DNA of 64,000 nucleotides. Source: Trypanosoma brucei (Eukaryota). The stretch is from positions 2,912,001-2,976,000 of the forward strand of contig CM000207.1 in the NCBI GenBank assembly GCA_000002445.1, read 5' to 3'. The translations under genes and the position numbers were made by a program. This document shows, one piece after another, positions 565-51,400 of this stretch. Position 1 is the stretch's first letter, and each line of letters opens with the position of its first letter. The notes beneath the pieces were generated by a model. The model was not told the origin of the DNA and made no database searches. It was given only the letters and a program-made list of their open reading frames with translations.

Positions 565-1510
<946 letters not shown>

Positions 1511-3994: not shown

Positions 3995-4865
<871 letters not shown>

Positions 4866-5677: not shown

Positions 5678-7288
5678 ATGGCTAAAAAAGTATTAGGCTT
5701 TGCTCAACTTGCAACTCTAATAGTTGTGTTGTCACCGTCTTCAATTTACGCCAACGTTGGACCAGGAGACAACGCAGCGGAATTTACCACGCTGTGTCAA
5801 CTAATTTCGCTAGCAGAAGGAGCAGCACAGCCTCCAGCGGCGACAACGGCTCCAAGCGCCGAATACGACGAACTCATGAGACTAAACATGACTCTAAGCG
5901 ACGAAGCTTGGCACGATATGTTCATAAAAAGTAAAGCCGACAAAACATGGCACGACGCAATACCCGCCACCGCGAAGGACCCGGGCGGATGGGCCGAAGC
6001 CTGGCCGACCTGGAGGAAGGCAGCGGAAGAGCTAACACAAGAAGATAAGATGGCCAACATCAAAAGCCTAAACGTCAATGCAGCAAACCCTAAACAGAAA
6101 GCAATGATAATAACGGAAATACGCAAAATGGCAGACGCAGCGCAGGAACTCATGAAAAAGAGGCATACGCTCGACAAAAGCATCGAAAAGCCGCCACAGG
6201 AGTATGCCGCGGCTTTAAAAACTTTGGCCTACGGCGACAAAACCAAAAATAGAAAAACCGTAACGGCCGCCGACGCGTTCAAAGGCGGCAGCACCAGCTT
6301 CAGCACTGACTGCGGCGGGGCGGCGGCCAGCAACAAGATAAAAACAGTCGCAGCCACGATAACTTGCTTGTGCCACAAAGCAAATACACAAAACGAAGAC
6401 CAGGTGTGCGGACGAACAGTTAAGATCACGACAAACACATGGACCGTAAACGGCGCGATCGGCAGCGCAGGGGTCATAACGGAGCCCCTAGGCTTTTGCA
6501 GCGTAGAGCAAGGCACCGACTTAACAAGCTCGGAAATCACAGCAATCCTACGGCAGCTTAAAAGCTTAATCAAAGTCACATCAAACGACGGTATACTAGG
6601 CGCCTCAGACAATGGCAGCTGCGATGCGGACAAAACTCACGGCATCTGCATCAAGTTAACCAACTGGGCGGCCGACGGTAAAGTCGACATAACGAAATTA
6701 GAGTGGGCAAAGCAAGCAGTCGAGCTAGCAAAGGAGCTCAGCAGAAGAGAACACGCAGCGGCATCAGCAGCAGAAATAGACAGCGCGATCAGGAACTTGC
6801 ACAGACAGGCGTTTCGCACGACGCTCTACACAGCGCACATACAGCACAACCCGCATCAGACAGCAACGCCCTTAGATTCAACTTCAAAAAACGATAAAGG
6901 AATGGAAGACAAGAAGAAAGAATGCGAGAAACACAAAAACAACAAAACTTCTTGCACAAATGCTAAATGTATATGGGAAGGAAAAGATGGTAAATCTGAC
7001 ACAGAAGGCGAATGCAAACCTAAAGATGGAGGCAAAGGTACAGCCCAAACAAATGCAGGAACAGGAGATGGAACTGCAGGGACAGGTCCAAATTGCGCTA
7101 GCCAGACTAAAAAAGAGGATTGTGAAAAGGAAAATGTTGGAAAAACAACCCCTGTTTGCGGCTGGAGAATAGGCAAAGATAATGAACCTGATAAAGATAA
7201 AGAAATGTGCCGAAACGGTAGTTTTCTAGTAAACAAACAATTCGCCCTCAGCGTGGTTTCTGCTGCATTTGTGGCCTTGCTTTTTTAA
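5678..7288 (+). CDS. VSG: Intact VSG (536 aa): signal peptide MAKKVLGFAQLATLIVVLSPSSIYA, N-terminal domain, Cys-rich C-terminal domain, and GPI signal GSFLVNKQFALSVVSAAFVALLF
   Basis: Single uninterrupted ORF with all VSG hallmarks. The 70-bp array lies about 0.8 kb upstream. Canonical 3'UTR elements (TTTTCCCC 8-mer at about 7292 and the 16-mer at 7343-7358) lie downstream. Confidence 0.85.
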   Translation: MAKKVLGFAQLATLIVVLSPSSIYANVGPGDNAAEFTTLCQLISLAEGAAQPPAATTAPSAEYDELMRLNMTLSDEAWHDMFIKSKADKTWHDAIPATAKDPGGWAEAWPTWRKAAEELTQEDKMANIKSLNVNAANPKQKAMIITEIRKMADAAQELMKKRHTLDKSIEKPPQEYAAALKTLAYGDKTKNRKTVTAADAFKGGSTSFSTDCGGAAASNKIKTVAATITCLCHKANTQNEDQVCGRTVKITTNTWTVNGAIGSAGVITEPLGFCSVEQGTDLTSSEITAILRQLKSLIKVTSNDGILGASDNGSCDADKTHGICIKLTNWAADGKVDITKLEWAKQAVELAKELSRREHAAASAAEIDSAIRNLHRQAFRTTLYTAHIQHNPHQTATPLDSTSKNDKGMEDKKKECEKHKNNKTSCTNAKCIWEGKDGKSDTEGECKPKDGGKGTAQTNAGTGDGTAGTGPNCASQTKKEDCEKENVGKTTPVCGWRIGKDNEPDKDKEMCRNGSFLVNKQFALSVVSAAFVALLF

Positions 7289-7342
7289 ATTTTTTCCCCT
7301 CAATTTTCCTTAAATAAATTCTTGCTATTTGAAAAAACTTTC

Positions 7343-7358
7343 TGATATATTTTAACAC
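7343..7358 (+). promoter_or_regulatory. VSG 3'UTR 16-mer TGATATATTTTAACAC (mRNA-stability element), exact match
   Basis: Exact 16-mer 55 nt after the VSG stop, preceded by the TTTTCCCC 8-mer. Confidence 0.8.
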
Positions 7359-7480
7359 CTTAAAAATTCACCGAAAAAATTGAGCTGTTTTTTGTAAGTT
7401 GACTGTCTGATTGTCTAGAAATTTTTTCTGGCAACTTAAATTTTTTTTCTTCTTTTCCTGGTTTTTTTTTGAGGAAGTTG

Positions 7481-7586
7481 ATGGGGGGGGTAGTTAGGTT
7501 AGTTAGGTTAGTTAGGTTAGTTAGGGGGTTAGGTAGGCTTAGGCTTAGGCTTAGGATTAGGCTTAGGGTTATTCGGTTAGGGTTAC
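7481..7586 (+). repeat. Degenerate telomeric hexamer tract (TTAGGG/TTAGGT/TTAGGC variants), G-strand on the plus strand
   Basis: GGGGGGGGTAGTTAGGTTAGTTAGGTTAGTTAGGTTAGTTAGGGGGTTAGGTAGGCTTAGGCTTAGGCTTAGGATTAGGCTTAGGGTTATTCGGTTAGGGTTAC, located about 200 bp downstream of the VSG 3'UTR. Confidence 0.7.
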
Positions 7587-7599
7587 TTTTTTCCCTTTC

Positions 7600-7870
7600 A
7601 CTTTTTTATTTTTTTTAGTCTTTTAGTGTACAGCGGCTCCTTTTTTTGATATGAACCCTAACCCTTATTCGCCACCCCGCTTTACGGCGGCTTTTAATTT
7701 ATTTTTTTCTTTTCTGATTTTTTTTAAGTGATGCAGCGGCTCTTTTTTATTTTGCCACACCGACGGCAAGGCGATTTATTATTTTTATTGTTTTTATTTT
7801 ACAATACTTTGCTGTTTTTATTTTAACTTTTTCTTTATGATGCAGCGGCTTTTTTTTATATTTTGCACCA
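7600..7870 (+). repeat. Three copies of a conserved T-rich motif ...TTTAGTGATGCAGCGGCTCTTTTTT...(A)ACCCTAACCCTTATTCGCCAC (core at about 7631-7670, 7731-7760, 7848-7866)
   Basis: The GATGCAGCGGCTCTTTTTT core repeats three times. The first copy is followed by CCCTAACCC, which is telomeric C-strand and inverted relative to the upstream TTAGGG tract. The same unit recurs at 11461-11507. Confidence 0.6.
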
Positions 7871-8162
7871 TCTCTTTCTTCTCGACTTGTTACTTTTTTT
7901 GCTTTTGTGAATTTCAGCTCTGCGGTTTGCGCTGCACGCGACCAGCAAAATTAAAAAAAAACGCTGGCGCGTGGCAGTTTCGCTGCGCGAAACGATTTGC
8001 TTTTAAAGAGCAAATAAATTTAAAAATACTCATTTTGGGGAAAAGCTGATAATCAAAATTAGCAATTAAACTTCGGCGGCGCCATCTGACGCTGGCACAC
8101 GCCGGCCAAGGGTGCTCAACTTCCGGAGGTACGTTTTTAACCTAAAAGCCGTCTAGGGAAAA

Positions 8163-8310
8163 ATGTGCACATTGAGTGAGGAAATCAAGAAGGAAGTAGA
8201 AAAAGAATCGCAAACGGGTGGAAATGCTAGAAACCCCACAAAAACCACAGGAATAAATTATGTTCTAATTAAGGCCTCTTTTTTGCTTGTAATTTTTCTT
8301 CTAGCATAAC
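8163..8310 (+). pseudogene. VSG: VSG 3' fragment: C-terminal tail MCTLSEEIKKEVEKESQTGGNARNPTKTTGINYVLIKASFLLVIFLLA*
   Basis: Only the last approximately 49 codons of a VSG are present (Asn-type GPI signal), followed by a 3'UTR carrying the 16-mer at 8416-8431. No N-terminal domain lies upstream. Confidence 0.65.
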
Positions 8311-8415
8311 AGTTTTACGAATCATTTGTAAAAGCTTTTTCTCAGTTTTATGAGACTTATAAAAATTTATAAAAATTGCTATTTTGAAAATTTTTTTAAA
8401 AATGTTTTTGAAATA

Positions 8416-8431
8416 TGATATATTTTAACAC
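8416..8431 (+). promoter_or_regulatory. VSG 3'UTR 16-mer TGATATATTTTAACAC (exact)
   Basis: Exact match about 105 nt after the stop of the VSG 3' fragment. Confidence 0.75.
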
Positions 8432-8624
8432 TTTTTGTCAACCCTTTGCAAATTGTGCAATTCATTGAAAATTTTGAAAAACTTCACTTGTAAAACTTTG
8501 GTAAGACAGAGGCATGTGTGTACACCAGTAGGGTGATTGTATATTAAAATGAATAATATATTAATTTATTTTATTTCCCCTTTTTTTGTAGTTATAAAGT
8601 TAGGGTTGTATTGCAATAGTAACG

Positions 8625-8705
8625 ATAATGATAGTAGAAATAATAATAATAGTAATTAATAATAATAATAGGAGAGTGTTATGAGTGTGTATATCCTAAT
8701 ATGAT
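8625..8705 (+). repeat. Single 70-bp repeat unit (..TAATAATAATAGGAGAGTGTTATGAGTGTGTATATCCTAATATGATTAG)
   Basis: Short TAA tract plus GT-rich core. Preceded by the conserved lead-in AGTTAGGGTTGTATTGCAATAGTAACGATAATGATAGTAG, which is also seen at about 560 and 61640. Confidence 0.75.
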
Positions 8706-9732
8706 TAGAACTATGGTGGAGGGAACGAATGAACAAGCAAAATGGAAAAAATTTAAATATCGTGAGATTGTAATAGGAGTAAGTGAGTGAGTGAGATAGT
8801 GAGATGGTGAGTGTGCAAAAGATTTTGAGGGCGCGCGAGGGATATTATTAAGGAAACAGGAGGAAAATACAGATGGAGGAAGGTGTCATACACTCAGCTC
8901 CAAACACAAAAACGACTATGGAACTATAATACATAAAGGATATGATGGAAAGGCAATGAAAGAAAGACTCCACTTTAAAATCTCAATGGAGTTGCAATGT
9001 TTTGCGGGGAAGAAGAACACGATCAAGAAGGAAAAATATAGAATAACACAACGAAATCAGAAAAATCACGGCTCATAATAAAAGAGTATGTGATTGTGCT
9101 GTGGAATTCACACATGGATGTCCAAGTACTACTACAGACAGGTTGTTGGCGAATATCGTTTTCAATATGCTGGCCACAACGGACGGACGGAGATAGCCTA
9201 GGAAACTTTTATTTTTTAATGGAGTGTTTAGGAGAGGCTGCTCCTTTACCGCTAGAATACCAATAATAGAAAATCAAAATTAATAGGTGATCAACAAAGA
9301 TGGGTTAGATGTATAGTATCAAAACTCATACAGTTCTGTATAGCGGTGGGTCAAGAACTAATGCACTAAACCCCCCGAAACCATAGACGACGATGACACC
9401 CCTACAATGGTGGCAAAGTGTGATGATAGCGCATAACAAAAATGTTGAAGTTATTCACAACAACAATCACTAATTTCTGTAAAACTACAGACTTCATCTC
9501 CAAACACGACAAATTCAGCGCCTCTAATATGTTGTAACACCAACAACACTATCCTGAGTGTTAGAGAATAACAGAACGATAAGCACATACCAGATGAGCA
9601 ATGGAAGCATTAGCATTTTCAACAGTGATGTTTATACTGGCCTGTCCCGCACAGCTGACCGACGCCTAAGCACCAGCGAAGAACCCCCTCGACGGCTCGA
9701 AGATAGCAGGGCTCTGTAAAAAAGCAGGCGGC

Positions 9733-11195
9733 ATGCGCCAGACTGCAGCGGCGATACAAGCAGCTTTGGCAGCAGCTGAGCCAATAGTACAGAATGCTAT
9801 CAAACTACAACACCAATTAATCATCTATTCCCTTGCAGAAGCGGTCAAAAAGCGGGCTAAAATAGCAGCAATAAGAGCAGCGGCAGCGACAACAGCAATA
9901 AACAACATCTACTCGGCAGCAATAGCGAAAGCCAAAGGAGGAATATACCTAGCAGCAAAAGCAAATATCGTGGCTGGTAGCATTATAGAAGCAACCACAC
10001 TACTACTTGAACAACTCAAAGCGACCGAAGCTTCATGCGACGTCTCATGTCTAACAAATGCAGCGACCCGAAAAACAGCGGTGACGCACAGCCAGGACCT
10101 ACAGGGATGCGATAGCCTAGCAATACCTGACACGGTAAGCCTAGAAGGGCTAGAGAAATTCTCCGACCAAAGCTTCAAAAGCGGAATCCCGGAGGGAAAC
10201 GCAGCGTCGACAGAGAGCAGCTTCGCCAAATGCCTGCTGTTCGAAAACCACCCAAGTGCCACGGGCATGTTCACTGGCAACATGGCAAGCCATCTGACCA
10301 TGATGGCCGGGCTGCTGACAACAGGCACAACGGGCCCAGAAATCCGCCGGATAGACGACCTAGAGCCGACCAGCGCAAGCTCAGCGAACACACCGGCATA
10401 CCTCGAAGCAATTAAAGCCGCTAATGCGTACAAGACGACACCAGAGATAACAGATGACGACCTTTATGCAAGTATCTCTCAAGAATTAACAGGAGACGTA
10501 TTTCTGGCAGAGATCAACTTCGCCATAAACGACGTCAAAGCCAAACCCGAAGAGGTCCCAGCAACTAATGAGCTCAAGGCGGCCGCCAAGCAGATTTTTT
10601 GGCGACAGCGCCACTAAGTTCAAAAGTAAATTCATCAAGGAAATGTTAGAAGAAGAACTGGTGTTTCCATCGGAGCTGAAGCTGACGGCCAGTACAATAC
10701 AGAAGATACCGACTAACAGGTTAAGTGAAGTCGTAGAACTTTTGATTCAAGAAACCATTTCTAAAGAGACACAGGACAAGAAATGTCCAACGAGCCATTC
10801 CGCAGCAGAGAAGTCAACTTCCGAAACAGACGTGACGTGCGAAAAGAAAGGAACAGGAGATAACTGCAAAGATGGATGTAAATGGGGCAGTGACGGACCA
10901 AATAAAAATGCGTAGTGGATAAAACTTACACGCCAAAACAAGTAGATGGAGGAGAAAAAAACTTATAAAATGCTCCGATGCGACAACGGAAGAGAATTGC
11001 AAAAAGGTTGAGGGTAAGAAACCAGAAGGCAAAAATGCAGTTTGTGGACGGACTGATTATGTCGATGGAAGAGGGAAACTACCCGAACACGAATATCTAG
11101 ACGAATGTTTTATAGACAAAAAAATTGGCTCTGAGTACGGCTGCTGCTTTTATGGTCTCGCTGTTTTAATTTTCCTCTATTTTTCTTTCTGAAAT
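9733..11195 (+). pseudogene. VSG: VSG pseudogene (N-terminal domain ORF 9733-10617; C-terminal domain in shifted frames 10568-10915 and to about 11190, with a degenerate GPI tail)
   Basis: VSG-like N-domain without a signal peptide at the ORF start (MRQTAAAIQAALAAAEP...). The Cys-rich C-terminal pieces (...CEKKGTGDNCKDGCKWGSDGPNKNA) are out of frame. A 16-mer variant and telomere-like tract lie downstream. Confidence 0.65.
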
Positions 11196-11197
11196 TT

Positions 11198-11213
11198 GAT
11201 ATATTTTAACATA
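11198..11213 (+). promoter_or_regulatory. VSG 3'UTR 16-mer variant TGATATATTTTAACAT (15/16)
   Basis: Near-exact match directly after the VSG pseudogene's 3' end. Confidence 0.65.
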
Positions 11214-11350
11214 TTTAAAATTCGCCGGAAATATATTTTTAAAGCTGCCTGTGTGTGTAAAAATTTATTTTTGATACCTAAAAATTTTCTCCTTTTTCCT
11301 GTTTTCTTTTGAATTTTTGTTGTCCAACAAGGCAAGAAGGTAGAAAGATA

Positions 11351-11386
11351 GGTAGGGAGGTTAGGGTTAGGGTTAGAGTTTTTAAT
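11351..11386 (+). repeat. Short degenerate telomeric tract GGTAGGGAGGTTAGGGTTAGGGTTAGAG
   Basis: Two perfect TTAGGG units plus variants, about 140 bp downstream of the 16-mer. Same arrangement as 7481-7586. Confidence 0.6.
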
Positions 11387-11439
11387 TTTTTGGATTATTT
11401 TTCATTTCACTTTTTTTTTAATTTTCATTTTTTTGATTT

Positions 11440-11510
11440 CGCCATTTTTTAATTTTTAGTGATGAAGCGGCTCTTTTTTACATCGACCTTAACCCTTATT
11501 CGCACAGTTT
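11440..11510 (+). repeat. Fourth copy of the TTTAGTGATG(A/C)AGCGGCTCTTTTTT...CCTTAACCCTTATTCGCAC motif
   Basis: GTGATGAAGCGGCTCTTTTTTACATCGACCTTAACCCTTATTCGCACAG matches the 7631-7670 unit at most positions. Confidence 0.6.
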
Positions 11511-11574
11511 CAAATTCGCTTTTTTTACTCTATCAATGTTTTTGTATACACAGAGTCTTGAGCACCAACCAACA

Positions 11575-11907
11575 GCCACCACGTTGGACCCCGCAATAGC
11601 AGAAGAAAAATGCAAAGACAAACCGATGGGAAGTGCAGCGATGAAAGTGGCTGCAGATTCCAAGACGAAAAGTGCAAAGCTAAAGAGGAAGTGAAAGCGG
11701 AAGGAAAGAGGATAAATGTACTGGCCATATTGAAAAAACAGCTTGTGAAGAAGAGGACACGCCCGGCCAAACCCCCGTTTGTGGCTGGAGAAAAGACAAA
11801 GAGGGTGAACCCGAGCCAGAAAAGGAGAAGTGTCGAAATGGTAGTTTTCTCTTCAATCAGATAATTGCTCTGATTGTTTCCGCTTTTGTGAGTTTGGTAA
11901 AATTTTA
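11575..11907 (+). pseudogene. VSG: VSG C-terminal fragment (Cys-rich domain in a shifted frame; GPI tail CRNGSFLFNQIIALIVSAFVSLVKF*)
   Basis: EKCKDKPMGS...CKAKEEVKAEG... and a terminal GPI signal in different frames. No N-domain upstream. Ends about 45 bp before an ingi-like 5' end. Confidence 0.6.
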
Positions 11908-11949
11908 GCATTAAAAGGATATTTCCCAATTTTATGAAAACTATGAAAC

Positions 11950-13330
11950 ATCCCTGGTGACGCCGGCAACCTCATCGTGGCGCCAGGCTCTAGTGCTTCG
12001 TTCACGAGGAAGTCAAGTGCCTGCATTATACCCAGTCCGACAGGATTGGGGCGGGTAGCAGGCTTTTGGCGACAAGAAAAGGAGCAAGCAGCAGTATCGG
12101 CAGTCTGTGGTGAAGAAATATATTATACTGCTCCTCTGCACGTGCGACCGCGCTTCGATTGGAATACATGGGCTTTTACTACTTTTTAGCGGAGATGTGG
12201 AAGAGAATCCCTGCCATATGATTTGTGGAGCACAGTGAAATTCTGGGTGTCTCTCTCAGGCTAAGCGGATCGCCTTAAAGAAGAAGCACCAGGAGGATTG
12301 TATGCTATTTTGTCAGCTGCAGGAGATTCACTCGGCTCCAGCGGGACGTAAAGTTCTTAGAATAAGCCAATACCAGCATGTAGGATGGCAGGTTCTTCAC
12401 GTGGTGGTGGGGTATCAATTTTAGTCAAAGATATTGTGGAAGTCATCCAAAGTCCGAAGGAGGAGTTTCTGCTAGAAAGAGTCTCGGCAACGTTTATATT
12501 TTAAGCTGAGTCAAATTTGACAGTCACTTCAGTTTATTTTCCTAGAAAATCGATGGTTTCAAAAACATAGTTGGAACAATTAGCGGTATAAAGCGGTTCT
12601 CTTGTAGTAGGGGCAGATTTCAACTCACATCATGTGTTGCGGAACCCACTGCAGAATAATGACAACAAAGGGGAGTGTATTGTGTATTGGTGTATCGAAA
12701 ACGATACTAAGATAGCAAACACCAGAAAAGAAACCCTTCGTCAGGCGGGAACGGCTGTATTTCCGTTAAGAGACATCATAATGTACAGACACGTGAGGTA
12801 TAAAGTCGGACAACCATACTGAGTCCTGATAGTGACCATTTTTGGATCACTTTTGGCGTTTTTGTGAGTTGTGGTGCAGAGGTGATTGCACCCTCAAAAC
12901 CTGACCAGGGCTTTATACGCATTGGAATAAAGCGCATTGGAATGACTTCAGAGCGGTGAGTGATAAGTTCATTTTCAACAAGACTAAAGAAAAAATAAAG
13001 GATGCCGAAGCACTAAATAAAGCCATCAGGAGAAGCACAAGACAAGCAGCAAAGAAAACTATACCAAAGACAAAGGTGTATCACTGCCTTTCTGGACAAA
13101 GGAATTAAAAAATAAAATAAGCAGATAATGAAATATCGGGATGGACGTGGGAGAGACGTGCTGATTAGATGGAGAAAGAAGGCAATGTATATTACACTTT
13201 ACATTCAAGCATAAGTAACTGCAATATAAGATGTTATGCATCGCTAGTCATCACTACCCATTGGACAAAATAATAAAGAAATTAATTGCATCACGCATGG
13301 TCTCCATTAGTGTCTCCTTCACGAAGGAAA
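11950..13330 (+). mobile_element. Degenerate ingi/RIME-related retroelement fragment (DIRE-like): RIME-type 5' end CCCTGGTGACGCCGGCAACCTCATCGTGGCGCCAGG, degenerate 2A-like SGDVEENPCH, decayed AP-endonuclease region
   Basis: 5' terminus near-identical to the ingi 5' ends at 22205 and 48415. Conceptual translation parallels the ingi ORF N-terminus (2A motif, then an endonuclease-like WVSLSG..., ...ANWRNFRLKVDEL-like later) but carries many stops. The 3' limit is uncertain. Confidence 0.5.
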
Positions 13331-17590: not shown

Positions 17591-18670
17591 TCACACCGTG
17601 CATCTTCTTTTGATGTAAGGTGAGGCCAGTTTTGCTAGCACACTGCCTTCCGCATGTGGGCACATCAACATGGATGTGTTTGTATGCGGGGAATCAGTGG
17701 CACACAATTTTGTGCTTTTGCTGCATTTAAGCTCGACTCCCTCACCTTTGTGGAAAGCCTTACAGTGTCGGATGAGGGAGTCCCTGCAACTGAGAACTTT
17801 TTGGCACACACCACACTGCACCTCGCCCTTTCCTGGGACGTCAACGTTTCCCTCACGGGCACGCTTACGAGGGAATTGCACCACCATCACGGTACCTTCC
17901 TCCGTCACTATGCTCTTATGTTTGAATTTCTTGTGTAGTGACAGAGAAGAACGTGTACCGAAGCTCGCCTCGCACAGGTCACATTGAAATGGCAGCTTCC
18001 GTGTATCCTGAGGGGCTGGCGCTGCTGGGACGCTACCATCTCCTTGCAATGAGTCCTCGTTCTCTCGCCCCCTTTTCACACGGAAACTACCGCTGCCTAT
18101 GCCATGTATCGTTTGAAGGTGGTGTAATAGTCGGCCTGGCACTGCGAATTTGGAGGCACAGAGGGTACAATGAAGCACCTGCAGTCTCATCGGGACTCGT
18201 GTGCTCGATGGTAAAGGAACGATTGCCACCACTGGAGGGGGCTCCGGGGGGATATCCACTGCAGGTCTTGCATCGCCGTATTTGATCCTCCGGAGGGCAT
18301 CAGCTCGCACAAAGCCGTGTTTGTTTACCATGTGCGTTACAGCACTCGACCGGCATTGGTATGTGGCATTGCATTCCGTACATTTGGTCGGTTCGGAGGT
18401 TCTCTGAAGAGTGCGTGTCGCAACAGTTGGGGCTGTTTGCATTGTTGGCCCTATCGCTGCATGTTGTGGGTTACACCATCGGCACTGTGGAGGCACACTC
18501 GGGTTGATCTTTCGCAACATCCATCCATAGTGTCTTGAAGACCCAACCCGAAAGCGTGCCACTGTTGTTTCTTCTTCCCTCGTCAGTTCTTCTTTATGTT
18601 TTGTTGGAAAGTGGTTGCCCGTGATACCAAACCTATGAGTATTCTCATGGACTTCTTCCGACCTAAGCAC
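17591..18670 (-). CDS. ingi ORF C-terminal segment (359 aa): C2H2 zinc-finger/nucleic-acid-binding domain
   Basis: Repeated C-x2-C...H-x3-H fingers (CTECNATYQCRSSAVTHMVNKHG; CTLCASKFAVPGRLLHHLQTIHG; CDLCEASFGTRSSLSLHKKFKH; CGVCQKVLSCRDSLIRHCKAFH). Confidence 0.8.
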   Translation of the reverse strand: MLRSEEVHENTHRFGITGNHFPTKHKEELTREEETTVARFRVGSSRHYGWMLRKINPSVPPQCRWCNPQHAAIGPTMQTAPTVATRTLQRTSEPTKCTECNATYQCRSSAVTHMVNKHGFVRADALRRIKYGDARPAVDIPPEPPPVVAIVPLPSSTRVPMRLQVLHCTLCASKFAVPGRLLHHLQTIHGIGSGSFRVKRGRENEDSLQGDGSVPAAPAPQDTRKLPFQCDLCEASFGTRSSLSLHKKFKHKSIVTEEGTVMVVQFPRKRAREGNVDVPGKGEVQCGVCQKVLSCRDSLIRHCKAFHKGEGVELKCSKSTKLCATDSPHTNTSMLMCPHAEGSVLAKLASPYIKRRCTV

Positions 18671-18700
18671 TCGCTTCGCATAAGCAATGATGTCGGGGAT

Positions 18701-21523
18701 CTATGTGTCTCGAAACTGTGGTAAATCTGCGGACTTTTTGGCCATTTCATTACAAACCTCATTCCGTTTCACGCCACAATGGCCAAACACAAATTGCTGT
18801 CGGATACGTATCTTCCTTCTCTGAACTTGAAGCAGAAGCCTCCATAGTCGTCTCAGAATTGGGTCCGTTACGGCTAGGGGGCCTGTCTGCAGTGCTGTTA
18901 ACATTGACAGCGAGTCAGAGAAGATGGACAACCTGCTCAGTGTGCTTCTGTATGCCGGAAGCCATTTCAGCAGCCGTTGCAGCCCTATCTCTAATGCTAC
19001 GCATTCCGCTCTGTAACTGCATGAGAGTTCCCCTGCTCCCGTTTTGGGTGCACAAATCAGCGTGTTGTTTCTATAGAGCAGGGCAGCTGCTCCGGACTTC
19101 TTACCGAGGGACACGGATCCATCAGTCCACAATTCGTAGTGCTCTCGCCGCGGTGGCTCCTTCCCCCTCCGTGCAAAATGCCGTGCAATCCACTTTTCGG
19201 AAGCCTCCCTTTTGACATCGTCAGGGTCATCAGCGCACACAGGCTTTATCTGCGTGTGAAACATCGGTCGGCAGCTGTGGCGGAGCGTCGCTGTCTCTAG
19301 TGGGTGCTCGCGTGGCTCAATGCGGAGGTGGGGGTAGGACCGCATGATGCGGGAATGTAAGACTCTGACTGCATGTTTGCTGTGGTATACTTCTTCAGCA
19401 CTGCGCCGTAAACATCCGCCTCGTGACTCACACATCAGCATGAATTTCATGCTGCGCACAAGAGTGGTCGTCTTGAGTGGCAGGAGGTTTGCTTGCAGCA
19501 GAGAGTTCTCTTTGCGCGTCCCATGCGGTATGCCAGCTATGATGCGACTGGCTTTGTGTTGTGCTGCTGCAAGGAGGTCGCGACTTCGTTTTGAAGCGTC
19601 CCAGTACCATACCTCAATGCCATACATGGTGTGTGCCTGTACGAGTGCTACGTAAAAAGCTCTCAGTACTTGTCGTCTTGGCCCCCATGTAGAAGCTGAG
19701 ATGGCTGCTATATGCAGTAGTCTCAAGTCCATGTTGCGTCTCGTTTCGGCTGCATGTGTTGCCATCCCTTGCAGACACTGGAATGTTACTCCTAGAAGCT
19801 TCGGTGTCCTGTCAGCTCCTATTCTTTCGCCGTCCAGTTGTAATGTAAGGGGGTGGCGCTCTATACACCCGAAGAGTGTGCACTTTGTTTTCGCTACGTT
19901 TACAGACATAAAGTACTCTTTTGACCACTGTAACACCACGTTGAGGCCGCATTGCAGTGTGTGGTTGATGACATCCCTCTCTGTGTGCCTCGCAAGTAGC
20001 GTTAGGTCGTCTGCAAAGAATCCGTGCTGCAGTAACGGCACTTCTGCAAGGCGTTGGCTCAACGAGTTCATGACAATAATGAACATGATTGGGCCAAGGA
20101 CAGTTCCTTTTGGCACTCCTCGCTCAAATGTTCTGCTTCTGGAAAGCTTCTCCTTGAATCTCACTCTGCCAGTTCGGTTACTCAGAAATGATACGCACCA
20201 CTTCACAATGTGGTGTGATACCTTCATTCTGTGCATTTCCCTCGCAACTTTGTCGTGGTCTACTGTATCGAATGCCTTCTCGTAGTCAACGAATACAGCA
20301 CCCGTATGAGATTGGTGCGTGGGACGGCAGAGGGCGGCACGGACCTGCAGGAGTTGTTCGAGCGTTGAGCATCCGGAGCGAAAGCCTGATTGCTGCGGCG
20401 TCAGCTGGGACTCAACAGTATCTCTAAGCCTCGCGGCAATTATGCGTTCCATGACTTTGCAGAGACAGCTCGTGAGCGTCACAGGCCTGTAAGAATCGAG
20501 GTCCTCCGCCTTTTTTCCGGCCTTCAGGATGGGGATGATAACACCAGTCTTCCATGCAGGCGGCACGACTCCCGTTCGTAGGCTCTCATTGAATAGCCTC
20601 AGAACAACATTCAGCGCTGTTCTACCGAGATGTTGCAGTGCCTCGTTGTGTAAGCAATCAGGTCCGGCTGCGGATCCACTCGGTAGCAGTTTGATCGATC
20701 TCCGTAGTTCAGCCATCGTGATGGGACTGAACTCACTCGCTATCGTCTTTATGGGTGCCGGTGGGTGTGAGTCGGGGTGCCTTCTTGCGCGGGACGAGTA
20801 CAGTTTACTGAACCTCTCAGCTTGACGGTAGTCCGTGATGGCCGCGTTATCAACAAGTACAGCCGGTGTGGTTAGTGGTCGTGGCGCGTATACCTTCTTG
20901 ACAATGTGCCAACTGCAGCGGTCTGACACCGCAAGTCTGGAGCATAGTGTGCTCCATCTCTTCTTTGTGGTACGGTCCAGGATCTGCTTACGTGTGGCTA
21001 CCAACTTTTCCCTTCGGTGGGAGGGTCCGCATCCAGGGATCTCTTCATCGAGTTTCGCGAGCTCAGGTGTCCAATGTGGTGGCGTTGCTCTGCAGCCACG
21101 GGGGACGGAGACCTTCGTCGCAATACGGATGGCGGAGCTCAATTTCTGTTCCAGGGTGTTGACGTTCTTCTCTCTACCAATTTTCCTGCAGAGCTCGTCA
21201 ACCTTGAGACGGAAATTCCTCCAGTTAGCTTTTAGCCATGCGTACATGGGCTTTCGAAGCCGCGGGCAACTCAGTGCATCTGTGTCGTCTCCAACGATAA
21301 CGTCGAAAAATATGTGATGGTGATCGCTATAGGGAGAATACAGCGATGTCCACGTGTACACTGTGCAATTCCTTGAGAGTGTCACATCAGGGGTGGACTC
21401 CCCGTGGTGGCGCGCGTACCTGGTGGACTCACCAGTGTTGCAGACCAGAAACTGGTTGTTAATGCACCACTGTGTGAGGGTTTCACCCTTGGTATTTGGT
21501 GGGTTCGCGCGATCCCATGCCAA
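18701..21523 (-). CDS. ingi ORF central segment (940 aa): AP endonuclease C-part, reverse transcriptase, RNase H
   Basis: RT motifs (..VTLTSCLCKVMERIIAARL.., FVDYEKAFDTVDHDKV, FADDLTLLA) and an RNase H-like C-part (ELWTDGSV...FGHCGVKRNEVCNEMAKK). Confidence 0.85.
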   Translation of the reverse strand: MAWDRANPPNTKGETLTQWCINNQFLVCNTGESTRYARHHGESTPDVTLSRNCTVYTWTSLYSPYSDHHHIFFDVIVGDDTDALSCPRLRKPMYAWLKANWRNFRLKVDELCRKIGREKNVNTLEQKLSSAIRIATKVSVPRGCRATPPHWTPELAKLDEEIPGCGPSHRREKLVATRKQILDRTTKKRWSTLCSRLAVSDRCSWHIVKKVYAPRPLTTPAVLVDNAAITDYRQAERFSKLYSSRARRHPDSHPPAPIKTIASEFSPITMAELRRSIKLLPSGSAAGPDCLHNEALQHLGRTALNVVLRLFNESLRTGVVPPAWKTGVIIPILKAGKKAEDLDSYRPVTLTSCLCKVMERIIAARLRDTVESQLTPQQSGFRSGCSTLEQLLQVRAALCRPTHQSHTGAVFVDYEKAFDTVDHDKVAREMHRMKVSHHIVKWCVSFLSNRTGRVRFKEKLSRSRTFERGVPKGTVLGPIMFIIVMNSLSQRLAEVPLLQHGFFADDLTLLARHTERDVINHTLQCGLNVVLQWSKEYFMSVNVAKTKCTLFGCIERHPLTLQLDGERIGADRTPKLLGVTFQCLQGMATHAAETRRNMDLRLLHIAAISASTWGPRRQVLRAFYVALVQAHTMYGIEVWYWDASKRSRDLLAAAQHKASRIIAGIPHGTRKENSLLQANLLPLKTTTLVRSMKFMLMCESRGGCLRRSAEEVYHSKHAVRVLHSRIMRSYPHLRIEPREHPLETATLRHSCRPMFHTQIKPVCADDPDDVKREASEKWIARHFARRGKEPPRREHYELWTDGSVSLGKKSGAAALLYRNNTLICAPKTGAGELSCSYRAECVALEIGLQRLLKWLPAYRSTLSRLSIFSDSLSMLTALQTGPLAVTDPILRRLWRLLLQVQRRKIRIRQQFVFGHCGVKRNEVCNEMAKKSADLPQFRDT

Positions 21524-27924: not shown

Positions 27925-28460
<536 letters not shown>

Positions 28461-43739: not shown

Positions 43740-44360
<621 letters not shown>

Positions 44361-44698
44361 CTATAATCATCATAACTGTTATTTTTACCGTTATAACTAC
44401 TATTACTATAAAACCATTAATCAAAATTGCTTAAATAAACAAAAATACTTAGAATATCATTTACTTTTTATATCCTATCACCATACCACTGTGCACCCAG
44501 AGGCCACTATCATACATATATTTCAAAAATTTTAGACAGATAAATTTCATAAAATTGAGAGAAAATTCTTAAAATCCTTAAAATATAAAACCCACTAAAG
44601 CAGCAGCGATCAAAGTAAATTTCTTATTGACAGTAAAACTATAATCCTTTCAAGCATTATTTTCCCATTTGCAGTTTCTAGTGCAATCTTTCTGTTGC

Positions 44699-46150
44699 TT
44701 ATCTTTGCATTCTGAAGTTTTTTTTGGTTCCTCCTGTTCTTGCTTGGGTGTCTTGTTGTTCTGCTGCTGCCTCATTCAATTTGCAGTGTTTTCCGTCTTT
44801 TTCATCAGAACCTGTCCATTTGCAAATCGGACTCTTTTTTCTGCATTCAGCTGATTTCGTTATTTCCTCGCATTGGTCGGCACTTTGAGGCAATGCTCTT
44901 CTATCGGCCAGACTTGCTGCTTGTTTTGGGGCTGCCGCTGCCATCAATGCTATTGTGGTCATTGTTTTGTTTAATTGCTGGATGTTTTCCGCTAGCCGGA
45001 ATGCTTTCTTGGCTGCCCCCCGGGCTTTTTCTATGGCGTCGGCAGCGCCAAGCATTTTCTGTGCCCACCCGATTGCTAGATTGTCGCCGCTTTGTGGCCC
45101 GTAATAAACGCAGCACCCACCGTTGCTGGCGTCTATGTCGTCGCAGCCGTCATTGCCGTTGCCTATTGCTGCGCCCAGCATGTAAGTCTTTGCTTTGTTG
45201 GTTCCAGACCCAGTCGATGCTGCTTGTAGGACCGCACTGACGGTTGCTCTTAGCGCCGCTGCCGTCACTAGCTTAGCTTTGCTGTGCTTCTTGCATGCAT
45301 CGTACAACTCCTTCCATTGGGCTGGACCGTTTGCCATGTTTGCCCAGGTTGTGTCGCTGGCCGAAATTGAAACGGTACCGCACACTGCTGCCTGGTCCTG
45401 TTGTGTGTCTTTGCTACAGATGCATAGGAAATCCGCTGCGATCGATTCCCCTGCGATTTTTCCCTTTTTGCCTCCGCTTCCAGCATTGCCGCATGCGTCT
45501 ACTCGGCTTTCTACCGTTGTCGCCGTCACTTTCGTTTGTTTGTCAGCAACCGGGCCCACCGCTTGTTTGAGCAACGTCTGCGCTGTGTCAGCTTTGGCTT
45601 TTAGTAGTTCCGCCCTGAGCTCCGTCGCCAACTGCAGTACGGCTTGGGCTTGTTCTTCCAGCGCTTGCCTTGCCGTGTCAGAGAAGTCCGCACCTTTTAT
45701 TAGCTGATAGGCCTTGTCCGTCTTTGCTGTTTTGTGCCTATTAGCTGCCTTGACGCAGTTGGAGGCTGCCACCTCAACGCATTCCTTGCCTGCTGTTGAA
45801 CTTGGTTTGCTGATTGCTTCCTCAGCACTGTTCTTTGCCGCTAGTTCGGCTAGAGCTTCTGGGCTGAGTAGCGTTATGTTGATTAGCGCCGCTGCTTCCT
45901 CGGCGTCTGTTGGTTCGGCTGGTATCTCTGGCGCTGCTACCTGGGCTGAAGCGACATCGAGAGCGTTGCAAAGCAGTGCAAAGTCGCTAGCATGTGTTCC
46001 GGCTGCAGGGCCGGCCGCTCCTGCTGGTCCTGCTGCTACCGCAGCCATAAGCAACCCTGTGATAACGAATAAAGTTTGCTCTGAGCGAGTCGTGGATGCT
46101 TTTCTTCTTGCTGCTTGTTCCTGGGCAGTTGTGCTGGACTTCTGTCGCAT
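44699..46150 (-). CDS. VSG: VSG (483-aa ORF, N-terminal and most of the C-terminal domain open). A frameshift and a TGA (rc at about 44650-44652) separate the 3' end from the GPI tail KDYSFTVNKKFTLIAAALVGFIF* (about 44585-44640). Likely a pseudogene as it stands
   Basis: A-type N-domain (..FALLCNAL.., ..CICSKDTQQDQAAVCG..), C-domain ..CKWTGSDEKDGKHCK... In the +1 frame the 3' end reads ..CTRNCKWENNA*KDYSF..., with the stop where the consensus Cys codon sits. Confidence 0.7.
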   Translation of the reverse strand: MRQKSSTTAQEQAARRKASTTRSEQTLFVITGLLMAAVAAGPAGAAGPAAGTHASDFALLCNALDVASAQVAAPEIPAEPTDAEEAAALINITLLSPEALAELAAKNSAEEAISKPSSTAGKECVEVAASNCVKAANRHKTAKTDKAYQLIKGADFSDTARQALEEQAQAVLQLATELRAELLKAKADTAQTLLKQAVGPVADKQTKVTATTVESRVDACGNAGSGGKKGKIAGESIAADFLCICSKDTQQDQAAVCGTVSISASDTTWANMANGPAQWKELYDACKKHSKAKLVTAAALRATVSAVLQAASTGSGTNKAKTYMLGAAIGNGNDGCDDIDASNGGCCVYYGPQSGDNLAIGWAQKMLGAADAIEKARGAAKKAFRLAENIQQLNKTMTTIALMAAAAPKQAASLADRRALPQSADQCEEITKSAECRKKSPICKWTGSDEKDGKHCKLNEAAAEQQDTQARTGGTKKNFRMQR

Positions 46151-48414: not shown

Positions 48415-51400
48415 CCCAGCGATGCCGGCCACCTCAACGTGGTGCCAGGGTCCAGTACACCGTATCATCGGGGGAAGCCAAGAGCCAGCAGCGTTCCTTT
48501 CATGGGGAACACTGCTTTGCTCCGGCTACGGCATTATACAGAACAGGGATCAGCAGCGTCTTGCTGGGACACCGTCTTTCATTTGTCCGTCCCTGGGCAC
48601 GTGCCAGCGTGCCATCAGCAGTATCATCCGCACTAAGATGCTGCTGTCCGGTGATGTGGAAAAAAATCCCAGTCCGTCGTTGCGCGGGATGCAGTGGAAC
48701 TGCGCCGGGCTATCTCAAGGAAAGAGATTAGCACTCCACAAAACCCTTGTTGATGAGCGGATCGCCTTTTGTCTGTTGAGCGAGACAAGGATGACGCCTG
48801 GAGAGGCGGCTTGCTTTAGCGTTGCTGGCTACCAAAATCACGGAATAGCTCGTAACTGCAAATGAGGTGGTGTATCAATACTAGTGAGGGAGGACCTGCC
48901 AGTCGAGACCGGTATGGCCGTTGTTGGTCGCATTGAACAAGTGCATGCAACAATTCACCTTGCACGTGGAACGGCGCTGACTGTCACGTCGGCATACATC
49001 CCACCAAAACACACCTTCACGGCAACTGACCTAGATACGCTTCTGACGACTGACGGTGCCCAGCTCATCGGTGCAGACGCTAACGCACACGCGTTGGCAT
49101 GGGATCGCGCGAACCCACCAAATACCAAGGGTGAAACCCTCACACAGTGGTGCATTAACAACCAGTTTCTGGTCTGCAACACTGGTGAGTCCACCAGGTA
49201 CGCGCGCCACCACGGGGAGTCCACCCCTGATGTGACACTGTCAAGGAATTGCACAGTGTACACGTGGGCATCGCTGTATTCTCCCGATAGCGATCACCAT
49301 CACATATTTTTCGACGTTATCGTTGGAGACGACACAGATGCACTGAGTTGCCCGCGGCTTCGAAAGCCCATGTACGCATGGTTAAAAGCTAACTGGAGGA
49401 ATTTCCGTCTCAAGGTTGACGAGCTCTGCAGGAAAATTGGTAGAGAGAAGAACGTCAACACCCTGGAACAGAAATTAAGCTCCACTATCCGCACTGCGAC
49501 GAAGTTCTCCGTCCCCCGTGGCTGCAGAGCAACGCCACCACATTGGACACCTGAGCTCGCGAAACTCGATGAAGAGATCCCTGGATGCGGACCCTCCCAC
49601 CGAAGGGAAAAGTTGGTAGCCACGCGTAAGCAGATCCTGGACCGTACCACAAAAAAGAGGTGAAGCACTCTATGCTCCAGACTTGCGGTGTCAGACCGCT
49701 GCAGTTGGCACATTGTCAAGAAGGTATACGCGCCACGACCACTAACCACACCGGCTGTACTTGTTGATAACACGGCCATCACGGACTACCGTCAAGCTGA
49801 GATGTTCAGTAAACTGTACTCGTCTCAAGCAAGAAGGCATCCCGACTCACACCCACCATCACCCATAAAGACGACAGAGAGTGAGTTCAGTCCCATCACG
49901 ATGGCTGAACTACGGAGATCGATCAAACTGCTACCGAGTGGATCCGCAGCCGGACCTGATTGCTTATACAACGAGGCACTGCAACATCTCGGTAGAACAG
50001 CGCTGAATGTTGTTCTGAGGCTATTCAATGAGAGCCTACGAACGGGAGTCGTGCCGCCTGCATGGAAGACTGGTGTTATCATCCCCATCCTGAAGGCCGG
50101 AAAAAAGGCGGAGGACCTTGATTCTTACAGGCCTGTGACGCTCACGAGCTGTCTCTGCAAAGTCATGGAACGCATAATTGCCGCGAGGCTTAGAGATACT
50201 GTTGAGTCCCAGCTGACGCCGCAGCAATCAGGCTTTCGCCCCGGATGCTCAACACTCGAACAACTCCTGCAGGTCCGTGCTGCCCTTTGCCGCCCCACGC
50301 ATCAATCTCGTACGGGTGCTGTATTCGTTGACTACGAGAAGGCATTTGATGCAGTAGACCACGACAAAATTGCGAGGGAAATGCACAGAATGAAGGTATC
50401 ACACCACATTGTGAAGTGGTGCGTATCATCTCTGAGTAACCGAACTGGCAGAGTGAGATTCAAGGAGAAGCTTTCCAGAAGCAGAACATTTGAGCGAGGA
50501 GTGCCACAAGGAACTGTCCTTGGCCCAATCATGTTCATTATTGTCATGAACTCGTTGAGCCAACGCCTTGCAGAAGTGCCGTTACTGCAGCACAGATTCT
50601 TTGCAGACGACCTGAAGCTACTTGCGAGGCACACAGAGAGGGATGTCATCAACCACACACTATAGTGCGGCCTAAACGTGGTGTTACAGTTGTCAAAAGA
50701 GTACTTCATGTCTGTAAACGTAGCGAAAACAAAATGCACACTCTTCGGGTGTATAGAGCGCCACCCCCTTACATTACAACTGGACGGCGAAAGAATAGGA
50801 GCTGACAGGACACCACAGCTTCTAGGAGTAACATTCCAGTGTCTGCAAGGGATGGCAACACATGCAGCCGAAACGAGACGCAAGATGGACTTCCGACTAC
50901 TGCAGATAGCAGCCATCTCAGCTTCTACATGGGGGCCAAGACGACAAGTACTGAGAGCTTTTTACGTAGCACTCGTACAGGCACACACCATGTATGGCAT
51001 TGAGGTATGGTACTGGGACGCTTCGGAACGAAGTCGTGACCTCCTTGCATCAGCACAACACAAAGCCAGTTGAATCATAGCCGGCATACCGCATGGGACG
51101 CGCAAAGAGAACTCTCTGCTGCAAGCAAACCTCCTGCCACTCAAGACGACCACTCTTGTGCGCAGCATGAAATTCATGCTGATGTGTGAGTCACGAGGCG
51201 GATGTTTACGGCGCAGTGCTGAAGAAGTATACCACAGCAAACACCCAGTCAGAGTCTTACATTCCCGCATCATGCGGTCCTACCCCCACCTCCGCATTGA
51301 GCCACGCGAGCACCCACTAGAGACATCGACGCTCCGCCACAGCTGCCGACCGATATTTCACACGCAGATAAAGCCTGTGTCCGCTGATGACCATGAAGAT

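What the first reader, a model, noticed from the sequence alone, without database searches (positions are those of the whole stretch)
7481..7870. Fossil telomere structure downstream of array VSGs: degenerate TTAGGG tract, then a repeated 50-nt motif containing inverted CCCTAACCC (also at 11351-11510)
Downstream of the intact VSG (5678-7288) and of the VSG pseudogene (9733-11195), the same order recurs. First the 3'UTR with the 16-mer, then a T-rich stretch, then a degenerate G-strand telomeric tract (TTAGGG/TTAGGT/TTAGGC), then copies of TTTAGTGATGCAGCGGCTCTTTTTT..(A)ACCCTAACCCTTATTCGCCAC. The G-strand orientation matches a VSG transcribed toward a chromosome end, which suggests these cassettes were once telomere-adjacent (expression-site or minichromosomal VSGs) and were internalised with their telomere-proximal flank. 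The embedded CCCTAACCC is the opposite telomeric strand, giving a short head-to-head telomere-repeat junction. The 50-nt motif is conserved across two independent cassettes, and I do not recognise it as a named element.
Basis: seen in the sequence. Interest (0 to 1): 0.55.

Follow-up and report, generated by a model that had tools for sequence, protein, structure and literature searches.

The report
Fossil VSG–telomere junctions inside array
Two silent surface-antigen (VSG) genes inside a Trypanosoma brucei gene array are followed by a decayed copy of the DNA that normally joins such a gene to the chromosome end, so this flank probably once lay at a telomere; a short unnamed repeat that follows it remains unexplained.

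Summary
The window is a T. brucei TREU927 VSG array. Two cassettes (VSG 5678-7288; pseudogene 9733-11169) show the same order: 3'UTR 16-mer, T-rich stretch, G-strand telomere-like tract (7491-7585; 11349-11378), then a GC-cored motif (7625-7675, 7727-7758, 7837-7868; 11458-11505). Both are far above chance.

New evidence: a T. equiperdum VSG at a contig end, followed by (TTAGGG)5 and 29-nt telomere-derived repeats, has a 3' flank colinear with window 7345-7585 (73% over 270 nt, E 3e-31). It also matches the UTR and tract of cassette 2. The other VSG 3' ends in the window share only the 16-mer and run into 70-bp repeats. So the tract is homologous to a real VSG-telomere junction.

The two genes are unrelated (B-type and A-type), but the flanks are colinear. 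One ancestral flank is therefore more likely than two internalisations.

The motif occurs only after these tracts. It contains an inverted AACCCTAACCCT, but a fusion of two VSG telomeres does not fit. Its origin is unresolved. No genome-wide survey was possible. This is a relic of a known kind, of modest interest.

The parts
5678..7288 (+). Intact VSG of cassette 1 (B-type N-terminal domain, C-terminal domain ending ...SFLVNKQFALSVVSAAFVALLF)
   Evidence: ORF. Pfam VSG_B 3e-75 and Trypan_glycop_C 2e-25. 100% identical to a TREU927 VSG.
7343..7358 (+). VSG 3'UTR 16-mer TGATATATTTTAACAC of cassette 1
   Evidence: Exact match.
7359..7490 (+). Conserved pre-telomere flank: spacer, CTGGCAAC, T-rich stretch, GAGGAAGT, G8 run
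   Evidence: Aligns colinearly with the T. equiperdum telomere-adjacent VSG flank, L004 15497-15641.
7491..7585 (+). Degenerate G-strand telomere tract: (TAGTTAGGT)x4, about (TTAGGC)x5, then TTAGGGTTATTCGGTTAGGGTTA, which resembles a 29-nt telomere-derived unit with an internal deletion
   Evidence: Tandem repeat finder. TTAGG density. Aligned to (TTAGGG)5 plus 29-nt repeats of L004 up to its contig end.
7586..7695 (+). Motif unit U1: T-rich lead plus core 7625-7675 AGTGTACAGCGGCTCC-T7-GATATGAACCCTAACCCTTATTCGCCAC; inverted telomeric 12-mer at 7654-7665
   Evidence: The 12-mer beats 300 of 300 dinucleotide shuffles.
7692..7800 (+). Motif unit U2 (core 7727-7758, first half only). Its T-rich lead resembles the 60 nt that precede the telomere junction.
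   Evidence: U0-U2 similarity is reached by 3 of 1000 shuffles, which is suggestive only.
7801..7900 (+). Motif unit U3 (core 7837-7868, first half only)
7901..8156 (+). Spacer of unknown origin between the motif units and the next VSG fragment
   Evidence: No similarity to anything else in the window or the loci. A GC-rich hairpin is not better than shuffles.
8157..8431 (+). 5'-truncated VSG tail (...NYVLIKASFLLVIFLLA*) with its own 3'UTR and 16-mer (8416-8431). This is the resident remnant downstream of the junction.
   Evidence: Translation. 16-mer. Similar to other VSG 3' ends in the window.
9733..11169 (+). VSG pseudogene of cassette 2 (A-type, frame-shifted tail ...KKLALSTAAAFMVSLF*)
   Evidence: ORF. 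Pfam Trypan_glycop 1e-14. Translation.
11197..11212 (+). 16-mer of cassette 2 (1 mismatch)
11349..11378 (+). Short G-strand telomere tract TAGGTAGGGAGGTTAGGGTTAGGGTTAGAG
   Evidence: 95% match to the hexamer repeats of L004.
11410..11530 (+). Motif unit V1 (core 11458-11505, full form with ACCTTAACCCT at 11486-11496)
11557..11951 (+). 5'-truncated VSG C-terminal domain fragment with its stop (11908) and the start of a 3'UTR, cut off at 11951/11952
   Evidence: Translation. Sequence.

Best explanation
The tract is an interstitial telomeric sequence, and specifically a fossil of the junction between a telomere-adjacent VSG and its telomere.

VSGs with this type of C-terminal tail and 3'UTR carry a conserved flank of about 200 nt. 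It runs 16-mer, spacer, T-rich stretch, GAGGAAGT, G-run, AGTTAGGTTAGTTAGG. At a chromosome end this flank runs straight into TTAGGG repeats and 29-nt telomere-derived repeats.

An ancestral cassette of this kind became internal, together with at most about 100 nt of its repeats. The likely route is repair of a short or broken telomere by break-induced replication or ectopic recombination onto array DNA. An alternative route is gene conversion from a telomeric donor that ended by an illegitimate join. Either route leaves a 5'-truncated resident VSG fragment downstream, as seen at 8157 and 11557.

The flank module was then passed to unrelated VSGs by 3'-end recombination or duplication, which explains a B-type and an A-type gene sharing it. 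The stranded tract decayed as a minisatellite through point changes plus slippage, giving the 9-mer x4 and the TTAGGC run.

The motif units are the DNA that lay just beyond the short repeat island in that ancestral flank. They are most likely non-functional. They may partly derive from duplication of the pre-telomere stretch.

Shown: the homology, the colinearity and the specificity. Inferred: the direction of descent, the mechanism of internalisation, the single origin, and the lack of function.
For: - The window is a T. brucei TREU927 VSG array.
- L004 is the end of a T. equiperdum contig with a VSG followed 198 nt later by (TTAGGG)5 and 2.2 perfect 29-nt repeats.
- Its flank aligns with window 7345-7585 at 73% over 270 nt, E 2.6e-31. 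It also aligns with the UTR and tract of cassette 2. Every other VSG 3' end in the window matches only at the 16-mer.
- Those other flanks run into 70-bp repeats with no tract.
- The 201-nt distance from VSG to repeats equals the shortest VSG-to-telomere distance reported for bloodstream expression sites, 200-1590 nt (PMC2567434).
- The end of the cassette 1 tract (TTAGGGTTAT/TCGG/TTAGGGTTA) carries the two non-canonical joints of the 29-nt unit, which points to derivation from a mature subtelomere.
- The coding regions are unrelated, but the flanks are colinear through the tract-to-motif transition.
- Truncated VSG 3' fragments follow both motif regions.
- Homogeneous variant runs indicate slippage after loss of telomerase maintenance.
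Against: - There is only one telomeric comparator. It comes from a different subspecies, and its contig stops after about 100 nt of repeats. Whether real telomeres carry the motif beyond the first repeats is therefore unknown.
- Only two tract-bearing cassettes were seen, and both sit in one 4-kb neighbourhood.
- The reverse direction is not excluded: an internal TTAGG-like seed could have given rise to telomeres by chromosome healing.
- The motif has no identified source.
- No genome-wide count could be made.
Confidence: 0.6

Rival explanations
1. Functional module. The internal TTAGGG-like tract is kept because it is useful. It could supply downstream homology with the expression-site telomere, so that the whole VSG with its own 3'UTR can be copied in. 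It could also act as a ready-made seed for telomerase if the chromosome breaks just beyond it, turning an array VSG into a telomere-proximal VSG with a higher chance of activation. The motif would be part of this module.
For: - The same order is kept behind two unrelated VSGs at about 70-80% identity.
- Cassette 2 keeps 18 nt of perfect repeat.
- The motif occurs only with the tract.
- The junction sequence is conserved between T. brucei and T. equiperdum.
Against: - Cassette 1 is heavily degenerate (TTAGGT and TTAGGC units), with at most 11-12 nt of perfect repeat.
- Cassette 2 belongs to a pseudogene.
- Six other VSG 3' ends with a 16-mer-like element and two VSGs without one in the window lack the tract.
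- 25-30% divergence between the two flanks is what unconstrained intergenic DNA would show.
- No experiment bears on this.
Confidence: 0.13
2. Seed first. The internal TTAGG-like tract is the older state. Telomere-adjacent copies such as L004 arose when a chromosome broke beyond such a VSG and telomerase extended the pre-existing seed. The window then shows a precursor rather than a fossil.
For: The junction homology is symmetrical with respect to direction. L004 is the last VSG of an array rather than an obvious expression site, since another VSG and 70-bp repeats lie just upstream.
Against: - The cassette 1 tract ends in a unit that looks derived from the 29-nt subtelomeric repeat. De novo seeds would not contain that.
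- Variant-repeat runs look like decay.
- An origin for a 100-nt TTAGG-rich tract without telomerase is hard to propose.
Confidence: 0.1
3. Head-to-head telomere fusion. Two chromosome ends, or sister chromatids, fused. This left G-strand repeats followed by C-strand repeats (CCCTAACCC), and the motif region is the inverted subtelomere of the partner.
For: An inverted 12-nt (cassette 1) or 11-nt (cassette 2) telomeric match lies downstream of the G-strand tract. It exceeds all 300 dinucleotide shuffles.
Against: - There are only two C-strand repeats, about 70 nt from the tract, embedded in a non-telomeric repeated unit. Two of the four units lack them.
- The region remains T-rich on the + strand, like the VSG flank itself.
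- There is no inverted 16-mer or inverted VSG. The next feature is a + strand VSG fragment.
Confidence: 0.05
4. The motif units are worn copies of known cassette parts: either piled-up VSG 3' termini with their UTRs, or tandem duplicates of the pre-telomere flank. The CCCTAACCC would then be incidental.
For: - GCAGCGGCTCTTTTTTA can be read as ...AAALF-stop.
- U2 aligns with the 60 nt before the telomere junction (TTTCTGGCAAC...AAGTTGATG against TTTACGGCGGC...AAGTGATG), a score reached by 3 of 1000 shuffles.
Against: - No unit scores above dinucleotide shuffles against any of 12 VSG 3' ends.
- The flank resemblance holds for U2 only, out of 12 comparisons.
- T-rich low complexity inflates such scores.
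Confidence: 0.1
5. Coincidental low-complexity sequence with no relation to telomeres.
For: The surrounding DNA is T-rich and repetitive.
Against: - 11 TTAGG within about 90 nt, against 0.03-0.06 per 100 nt.
- Colinear 270-nt homology to a real VSG-telomere junction.
Confidence: 0.01

Closest known systems
3' flank of telomere-adjacent VSG genes (bloodstream expression sites, minichromosomes, array-terminal VSGs). Conserved organisation described by Aline & Stuart 1989, Exp Parasitol 68:57 (title seen in reference lists; content not readable here). VSG-to-repeat distances in Hertz-Fowler 2008 (PMC2567434).
   Same: Same order and spacing: stop codon, 16-mer, T-rich stretch, G-run, AGTTAGGTTAGTTAGG, hexamer repeats about 200 nt after the stop. 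Direct sequence homology to one such flank.
   Different: Here the repeats stop after 30-95 nt, are degenerate, and are followed by more array DNA rather than a telomere.
Interstitial telomeric sequences of other eukaryotes (short ones left by repair or ancestral rearrangement; fusion type such as human 2q13). General knowledge.
   Same: Telomere hexamers at a non-terminal site, degenerate, with variant-repeat runs.
   Different: The tract is tied to a specific gene-flank module and is apparently propagated with it. It is not a direct G-strand/C-strand head-to-head array.
29-bp telomere-derived subtelomeric repeat of T. brucei (Weiden et al. 1991, Mol Cell Biol, from my own knowledge). That paper also describes G+C-rich direct repeats separated by A+T-rich bent DNA next to minichromosome telomeres.
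   Same: L004 carries perfect 29-nt units. The end of the cassette 1 tract looks like one unit with an internal deletion. The motif region is also GC-rich cores spaced by T-rich DNA, with a period of about 105-110 nt.
   Different: Unit sizes differ from the 74 and 155 bp that I recall. No sequence comparison was possible, so any link between the motif and those repeats is only a lead.
Conserved 189-bp telomere junction of Trypanosoma cruzi (discussed in PMC3418195, listed; not read in detail)
   Same: A conserved, non-coding junction sequence between surface-antigen family genes and the hexamer repeats.
   Different: Different species, sequence and gene family. It is described at chromosome ends, not as internal fossils.

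Membership tests
Interstitial telomeric sequence | Tandem telomere-type hexamers, two or more, at a non-terminal position | tested here: met
   The window has 11 TTAGG units at 7491-7585 and GGTTAGGGTTAGGGTTAG at 11359-11376. Tens of kb of array DNA lie on both sides.
VSG-telomere junction flank | Colinear homology to the flank of a VSG that is directly followed by terminal telomere repeats | tested here: met
   L004 15483-15742 against window 7345-7585: 73% over 270 nt, E 2.6e-31. The match is specific to cassettes 1 and 2. There is only one comparator.
VSG-telomere junction flank | G-strand on the VSG sense strand, about 200 nt or more after the stop codon | tested here: met
   201 nt in cassette 1 and 198 nt in L004. 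The published range is 200-1590 nt.
Functional telomere | Long, homogeneous TTAGGG array at the end of the DNA molecule | tested here: not met
   The tracts are 95 and 30 nt, degenerate and internal.
Head-to-head telomere fusion site | G-strand array directly abutting a C-strand array, with inverted subtelomeres on either side | tested here: not met
   There are two C-strand repeats only, about 70 nt away. The strand composition is unchanged, and there is no inverted VSG flank.
29-nt telomere-derived repeat | Tandem units GGGTTATCGGGTTCAGGTGTTTCGGGTTA | tested here: inconclusive
   The units are perfect in L004. The window has a single shortened look-alike at 7563-7585.
70-bp repeat / standard array 3' flank | 3'UTR followed within about 200 nt by 70-bp repeats of the next cassette | tested here: not met
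   This holds for several other 3' ends in the window (8416, 25339, 37959, 56602, 61436, 44699) but not for cassettes 1 and 2.
Known RNA family | Match to an Rfam covariance model | tested here: not met
   No hit at E <= 1 in 7000-12200.

The most novel reading that the evidence does not exclude
The tract plus motif is a maintained recombination or healing module of one VSG flank lineage. Internal telomere seeds, with an adjacent conserved element, would let a break just downstream convert a silent array VSG into a telomere-proximal one. Alternatively they would let gene conversion into the expression site terminate in telomere repeats. Either way, these genes would rank higher in the order in which VSGs are activated.
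Probability: 0.1. Interest if true: 0.7.

Novelty: new member of a known kind. Interest (0 to 1): 0.36.

Why it matters
It gives sequence-level evidence of traffic between chromosome ends and the silent VSG arrays, which bears on how the arrays grow and how flanks are shuffled among unrelated VSGs.

It also marks sites that could matter in practice:
- short internal telomere repeats can bind telomere proteins;
- they can carry base J;
- they can serve as microhomology for repair;
- they can seed new telomeres.

If the module proved common and tied to the order of VSG activation, it would be a new determinant of the VSG expression hierarchy. As a decaying relic it is a useful evolutionary marker, but it is not surprising.

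Tried and rejected
1. Retrieving the TREU927 chromosome or other T. brucei loci by exact protein look-up. Two window VSGs and their database twin are not on record. Proteins from fetched loci are not accepted. Only one T. equiperdum VSG gave loci.
2. Three protein homology searches, run to collect more VSGs for look-up. They returned the same six proteins or nothing usable.
3. Metagenome scans for the motif and for VSG relatives.
4. The motif as a degenerate VSG 3' end plus UTR. No unit beats dinucleotide shuffles against 12 VSG 3' ends.
5. The motif as a structured RNA, or the GC-rich palindrome at 7935-7975 as a hairpin. No Rfam hit, and the fold z-score is -0.9.
6. Further motif copies sought with a profile. 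None were found.
7. Literature. Ten full-text searches and twelve papers read gave no description of telomere-repeat relics behind array VSGs or of the motif (27, 28, 39, 40, 42, 43, 57, 58, 66, 67, 72). Marcello & Barry 2007 and Callejas 2006 are not held. The 1980s-90s papers on VSG 3' flanks are not searchable here, so prior description cannot be excluded.
8. The internal T. equiperdum copies L001-L003 as extra comparators. They diverge into inverted VSG sequence and look like duplications or assembly problems.

Full report
**Where the window comes from.** The VSG at 5678-7288 is 100% identical to an annotated VSG of Trypanosoma brucei brucei TREU927 on a 3.06-Mb chromosome record. The window holds several VSGs and pseudogenes of A and B type, long (TAA)n tracts belonging to 70-bp repeat regions, and two ingi retroposons.

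**Checking the observation.**
- Cassette 1 reads, in order:
  - VSG stop at 7288;
  - perfect 16-mer at 7343-7358;
  - a T-rich stretch;
  - GAGGAAGTTGATG and a G8 run;
  - a 95-nt tract at 7491-7585 made of (TAGTTAGGT)x4, about five TTAGGC units, and TTAGGGTTATTCGGTTAGGGTTA.
- That tract holds 11 of the 38 plus-strand TTAGG pentamers in the whole 64 kb.
- Three units of about 105-110 nt follow. Each is a T-rich lead plus a GC-rich core, at 7625-7675, 7727-7758 and 7837-7868.
- Cassette 2 repeats the order on a smaller scale: 16-mer at 11197, tract at 11349-11378, one unit with its core at 11458-11505.
- The two halves of the motif occur 3 and 2 times, against 0.04 and 0.07 expected.
- A profile of the four units finds nothing else in the window or in the T. 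equiperdum loci.
- The full form with the C-strand-like AACCCTAACCCT (cassette 2: ACCTTAACCCT) is present in only two of the four units.

**Is the tract really telomere-related?**
- The only outside T. brucei-group DNA I could obtain came from one T. equiperdum VSG.
- One of its loci, L004, runs to the end of a 23-kb contig. Its last gene is a VSG whose tail (...KKFALMVSSFVALLF) is of the same type as that of cassette 1.
- 198 nt after that VSG's stop, the sequence reads GGGGGCAGTTAGGTTAGTTAGGG. It continues as (TTAGGG)5 and then 2.2 perfect copies of a 29-nt telomere-derived unit, up to the contig end.
- This flank aligns with window 7345-7585 at 73% identity over 270 nt (E 2.6e-31). The alignment is colinear through the 16-mer, the spacer, CTGGCAAC, the T-rich stretch, GAGGAAGT, the G-run, the AGTTAGG units and the repeats.
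- It also matches the UTR and tract of cassette 2.
- Against every other VSG 3' end of the window it matches only the 16-mer.
- Several of those other flanks run within about 200 nt into 70-bp repeats, and none has a tract.
- The spacing agrees as well: 201 nt against 198 nt from stop to repeats. This equals the shortest VSG-to-telomere distance reported for Lister 427 expression sites, 200-1590 nt (PMC2567434).
- The tract is therefore homologous to a genuine VSG-telomere junction, with the G-strand on the VSG sense strand.

**One event or two?**
- The two VSGs are unrelated: B-type against A-type, with no nucleotide similarity in the coding regions.
- The flanks, however, are colinear from the 16-mer through the tract, the TTTCACTTTTTT stretch and the motif, at 70-80% identity.
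- The transition from tract to motif is thus shared. The simplest history is one ancestral flank that already had tract plus motif, later attached to different VSGs by 3'-end recombination or duplication.
- The cassettes are not two independent internalisations.
- The length difference (95 nt against 30 nt) and the homogeneous variant runs (a 9-mer repeated four times at 100% match, and TTAGGC runs) look like minisatellite slippage after the tract lost telomerase maintenance.
- The end of the cassette 1 tract (TTAGGGTTAT-TCGG-TTAGGGTTA) carries both non-canonical joints of the 29-nt unit seen in L004. It looks like one unit with an internal deletion.
- That favours descent from a mature subtelomere rather than a chance internal seed. 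This is inference, not proof.

**What lies beyond.**
- Both motif regions are followed by 5'-truncated VSG 3' fragments on the same strand.
  - After cassette 1: a tail with its own 3'UTR and 16-mer at 8157-8431.
  - After cassette 2: a C-terminal domain at 11557-11908, whose UTR is cut at 11951.
- This is the picture expected if a telomere-type cassette was joined illegitimately onto, or into, array DNA and destroyed most of a resident gene.
- I propose one of two routes:
  - repair of a short or broken telomere by break-induced replication or ectopic recombination onto array sequence;
  - gene conversion from a telomeric donor that ended in a non-homologous join.
- These steps are inferred.

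**The motif.** I tested four ideas.
1. A worn VSG 3' terminus plus UTR (GCAGCGGCTCTTTTTTA can be read as ...AAALF-stop). No unit beats dinucleotide shuffles against 12 VSG 3' ends, so this is rejected.
2. An inverted telomere repeat.
   - The 12-nt and 11-nt matches exceed all 300 shuffles, so the resemblance is real.
   - But it is only two repeats, about 70 nt from the tract, inside a non-telomeric unit.
   - The region stays T-rich on the + strand.
   - There is no inverted 16-mer or inverted VSG.
   - A fusion of two VSG-bearing telomeres is therefore rejected. A small inverted telomeric remnant of some other origin is not excluded.
3. A duplicate of the pre-telomere flank. U2 aligns with the 60 nt before the junction, a score reached by 3 of 1000 shuffles, but this holds for only one of 12 comparisons. 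It is suggestive only.
4. A structured RNA. There is no Rfam hit and no unusual fold.

From memory, minichromosome subtelomeres carry G+C-rich repeats separated by A+T-rich DNA next to the 29-bp repeats (Weiden et al. 1991). The motif region has that general character, but I could not compare sequences. The origin of the motif stays open. Within the data available, it occurs only behind the two tracts.

**What is known.**
- A conserved organisation 3' of telomeric VSG genes was published in 1989. I saw the title in reference lists but could not read the text.
- Interstitial telomeric sequences are a well-known class in eukaryotes.
- Ten full-text searches and twelve papers gave no description of telomere-repeat relics behind array VSGs or of this motif (listed in the section on what was tried). 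However, key older and subscription papers are not searchable here.
- I therefore rate this as a new member of a known kind, not a new kind.

**Limits.**
- There is one telomeric comparator, from a sister subspecies, and its contig ends after about 100 nt of repeats.
- Only two tract-bearing cassettes were seen, side by side.
- No genome-wide tabulation was possible. TREU927 could not be retrieved, and the metagenome scans were empty.
- The direction of descent, the single origin and the lack of function are inferences.

**Verdict.**
The telomeric origin of the tract stands. The head-to-head junction and the independence of the two cassettes do not.
- The finding is of modest interest as a marker of telomere-to-array traffic.
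- There is a small chance that the module has a role in recombination or chromosome healing.

Noticed in passing
window 8596-8607 and 61640-61651; L001 11795-11815: Where a standard array flank meets the first 70-bp repeat of the next cassette, the sequence reads AGTTAGGGTT(G/A)TA...ATAG in two cassettes. The counterparts at 25339(-) and in T. equiperdum read GGGGTTGCAATAG and GTTAGTTGCGTTATAATAG. This may be a single telomere-like octamer at the 70-bp repeat boundary, or it may be chance.
   Followed up: partly
window 11952-12030: The 3'UTR of the VSG fragment is cut at 11951. It is followed by CCCTGGTGACGCCGGCAACCTCATCGTGGCGCCAGG..., which I recall as the conserved 5' end of ingi/RIME-type retroposons. 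The next 3.6 kb has no nucleotide or protein similarity to the two ingi copies in the window, so it may be a degenerate relative.
   Followed up: partly
window 17594-21523 (-) and 49094-53023 (+): Two ingi-type retroposon copies with endonuclease, reverse transcriptase, RNase H and C2H2 zinc-finger parts, about 95% identical at the protein level. They lie near the points where VSG orientation changes: + up to about 12 kb, - from about 25 to 48 kb, + from about 55 kb.
   Followed up: partly
window 623-1473, 4069-4803, 28004-28417, 43851-44328: Very long, nearly pure (TAA)n tracts within 70-bp repeat regions, up to 283 units and one at 100% purity over 478 nt.
   Followed up: no
window 7534-7571: A homogeneous run of the variant hexamer TTAGGC (the nematode-type repeat) sits inside the degenerate tract. 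This implies tandem amplification of a mutated unit rather than independent point mutations.
   Followed up: no
L001, L002, L003 (T. equiperdum QSBY01000013.1 at about 143, 240 and 336 kb) and L004: The same VSG and more than 13 kb of identical surroundings occur three times at spacings of about 95 kb in one contig, and again at the end of another contig. The internal copies switch abruptly into inverted VSG sequence at locus position 14627. This is either a large segmental duplication or an assembly artefact.
   Followed up: partly
window 44520-44700 (-) and 61437-61560 (+): Two apparently intact B-type VSGs (44699-46150 on the - strand, 59877-61436 on the + strand) have no recognisable 16-mer within two mismatches in their 3' flanks.
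   Followed up: no
window 62047-62109: A 25-nt unit (AATGAAAAAATACGAAAAGAAAGGA) is repeated 2.5 times at 97% identity, downstream of the 70-bp repeat that follows the last VSG.
   Followed up: no
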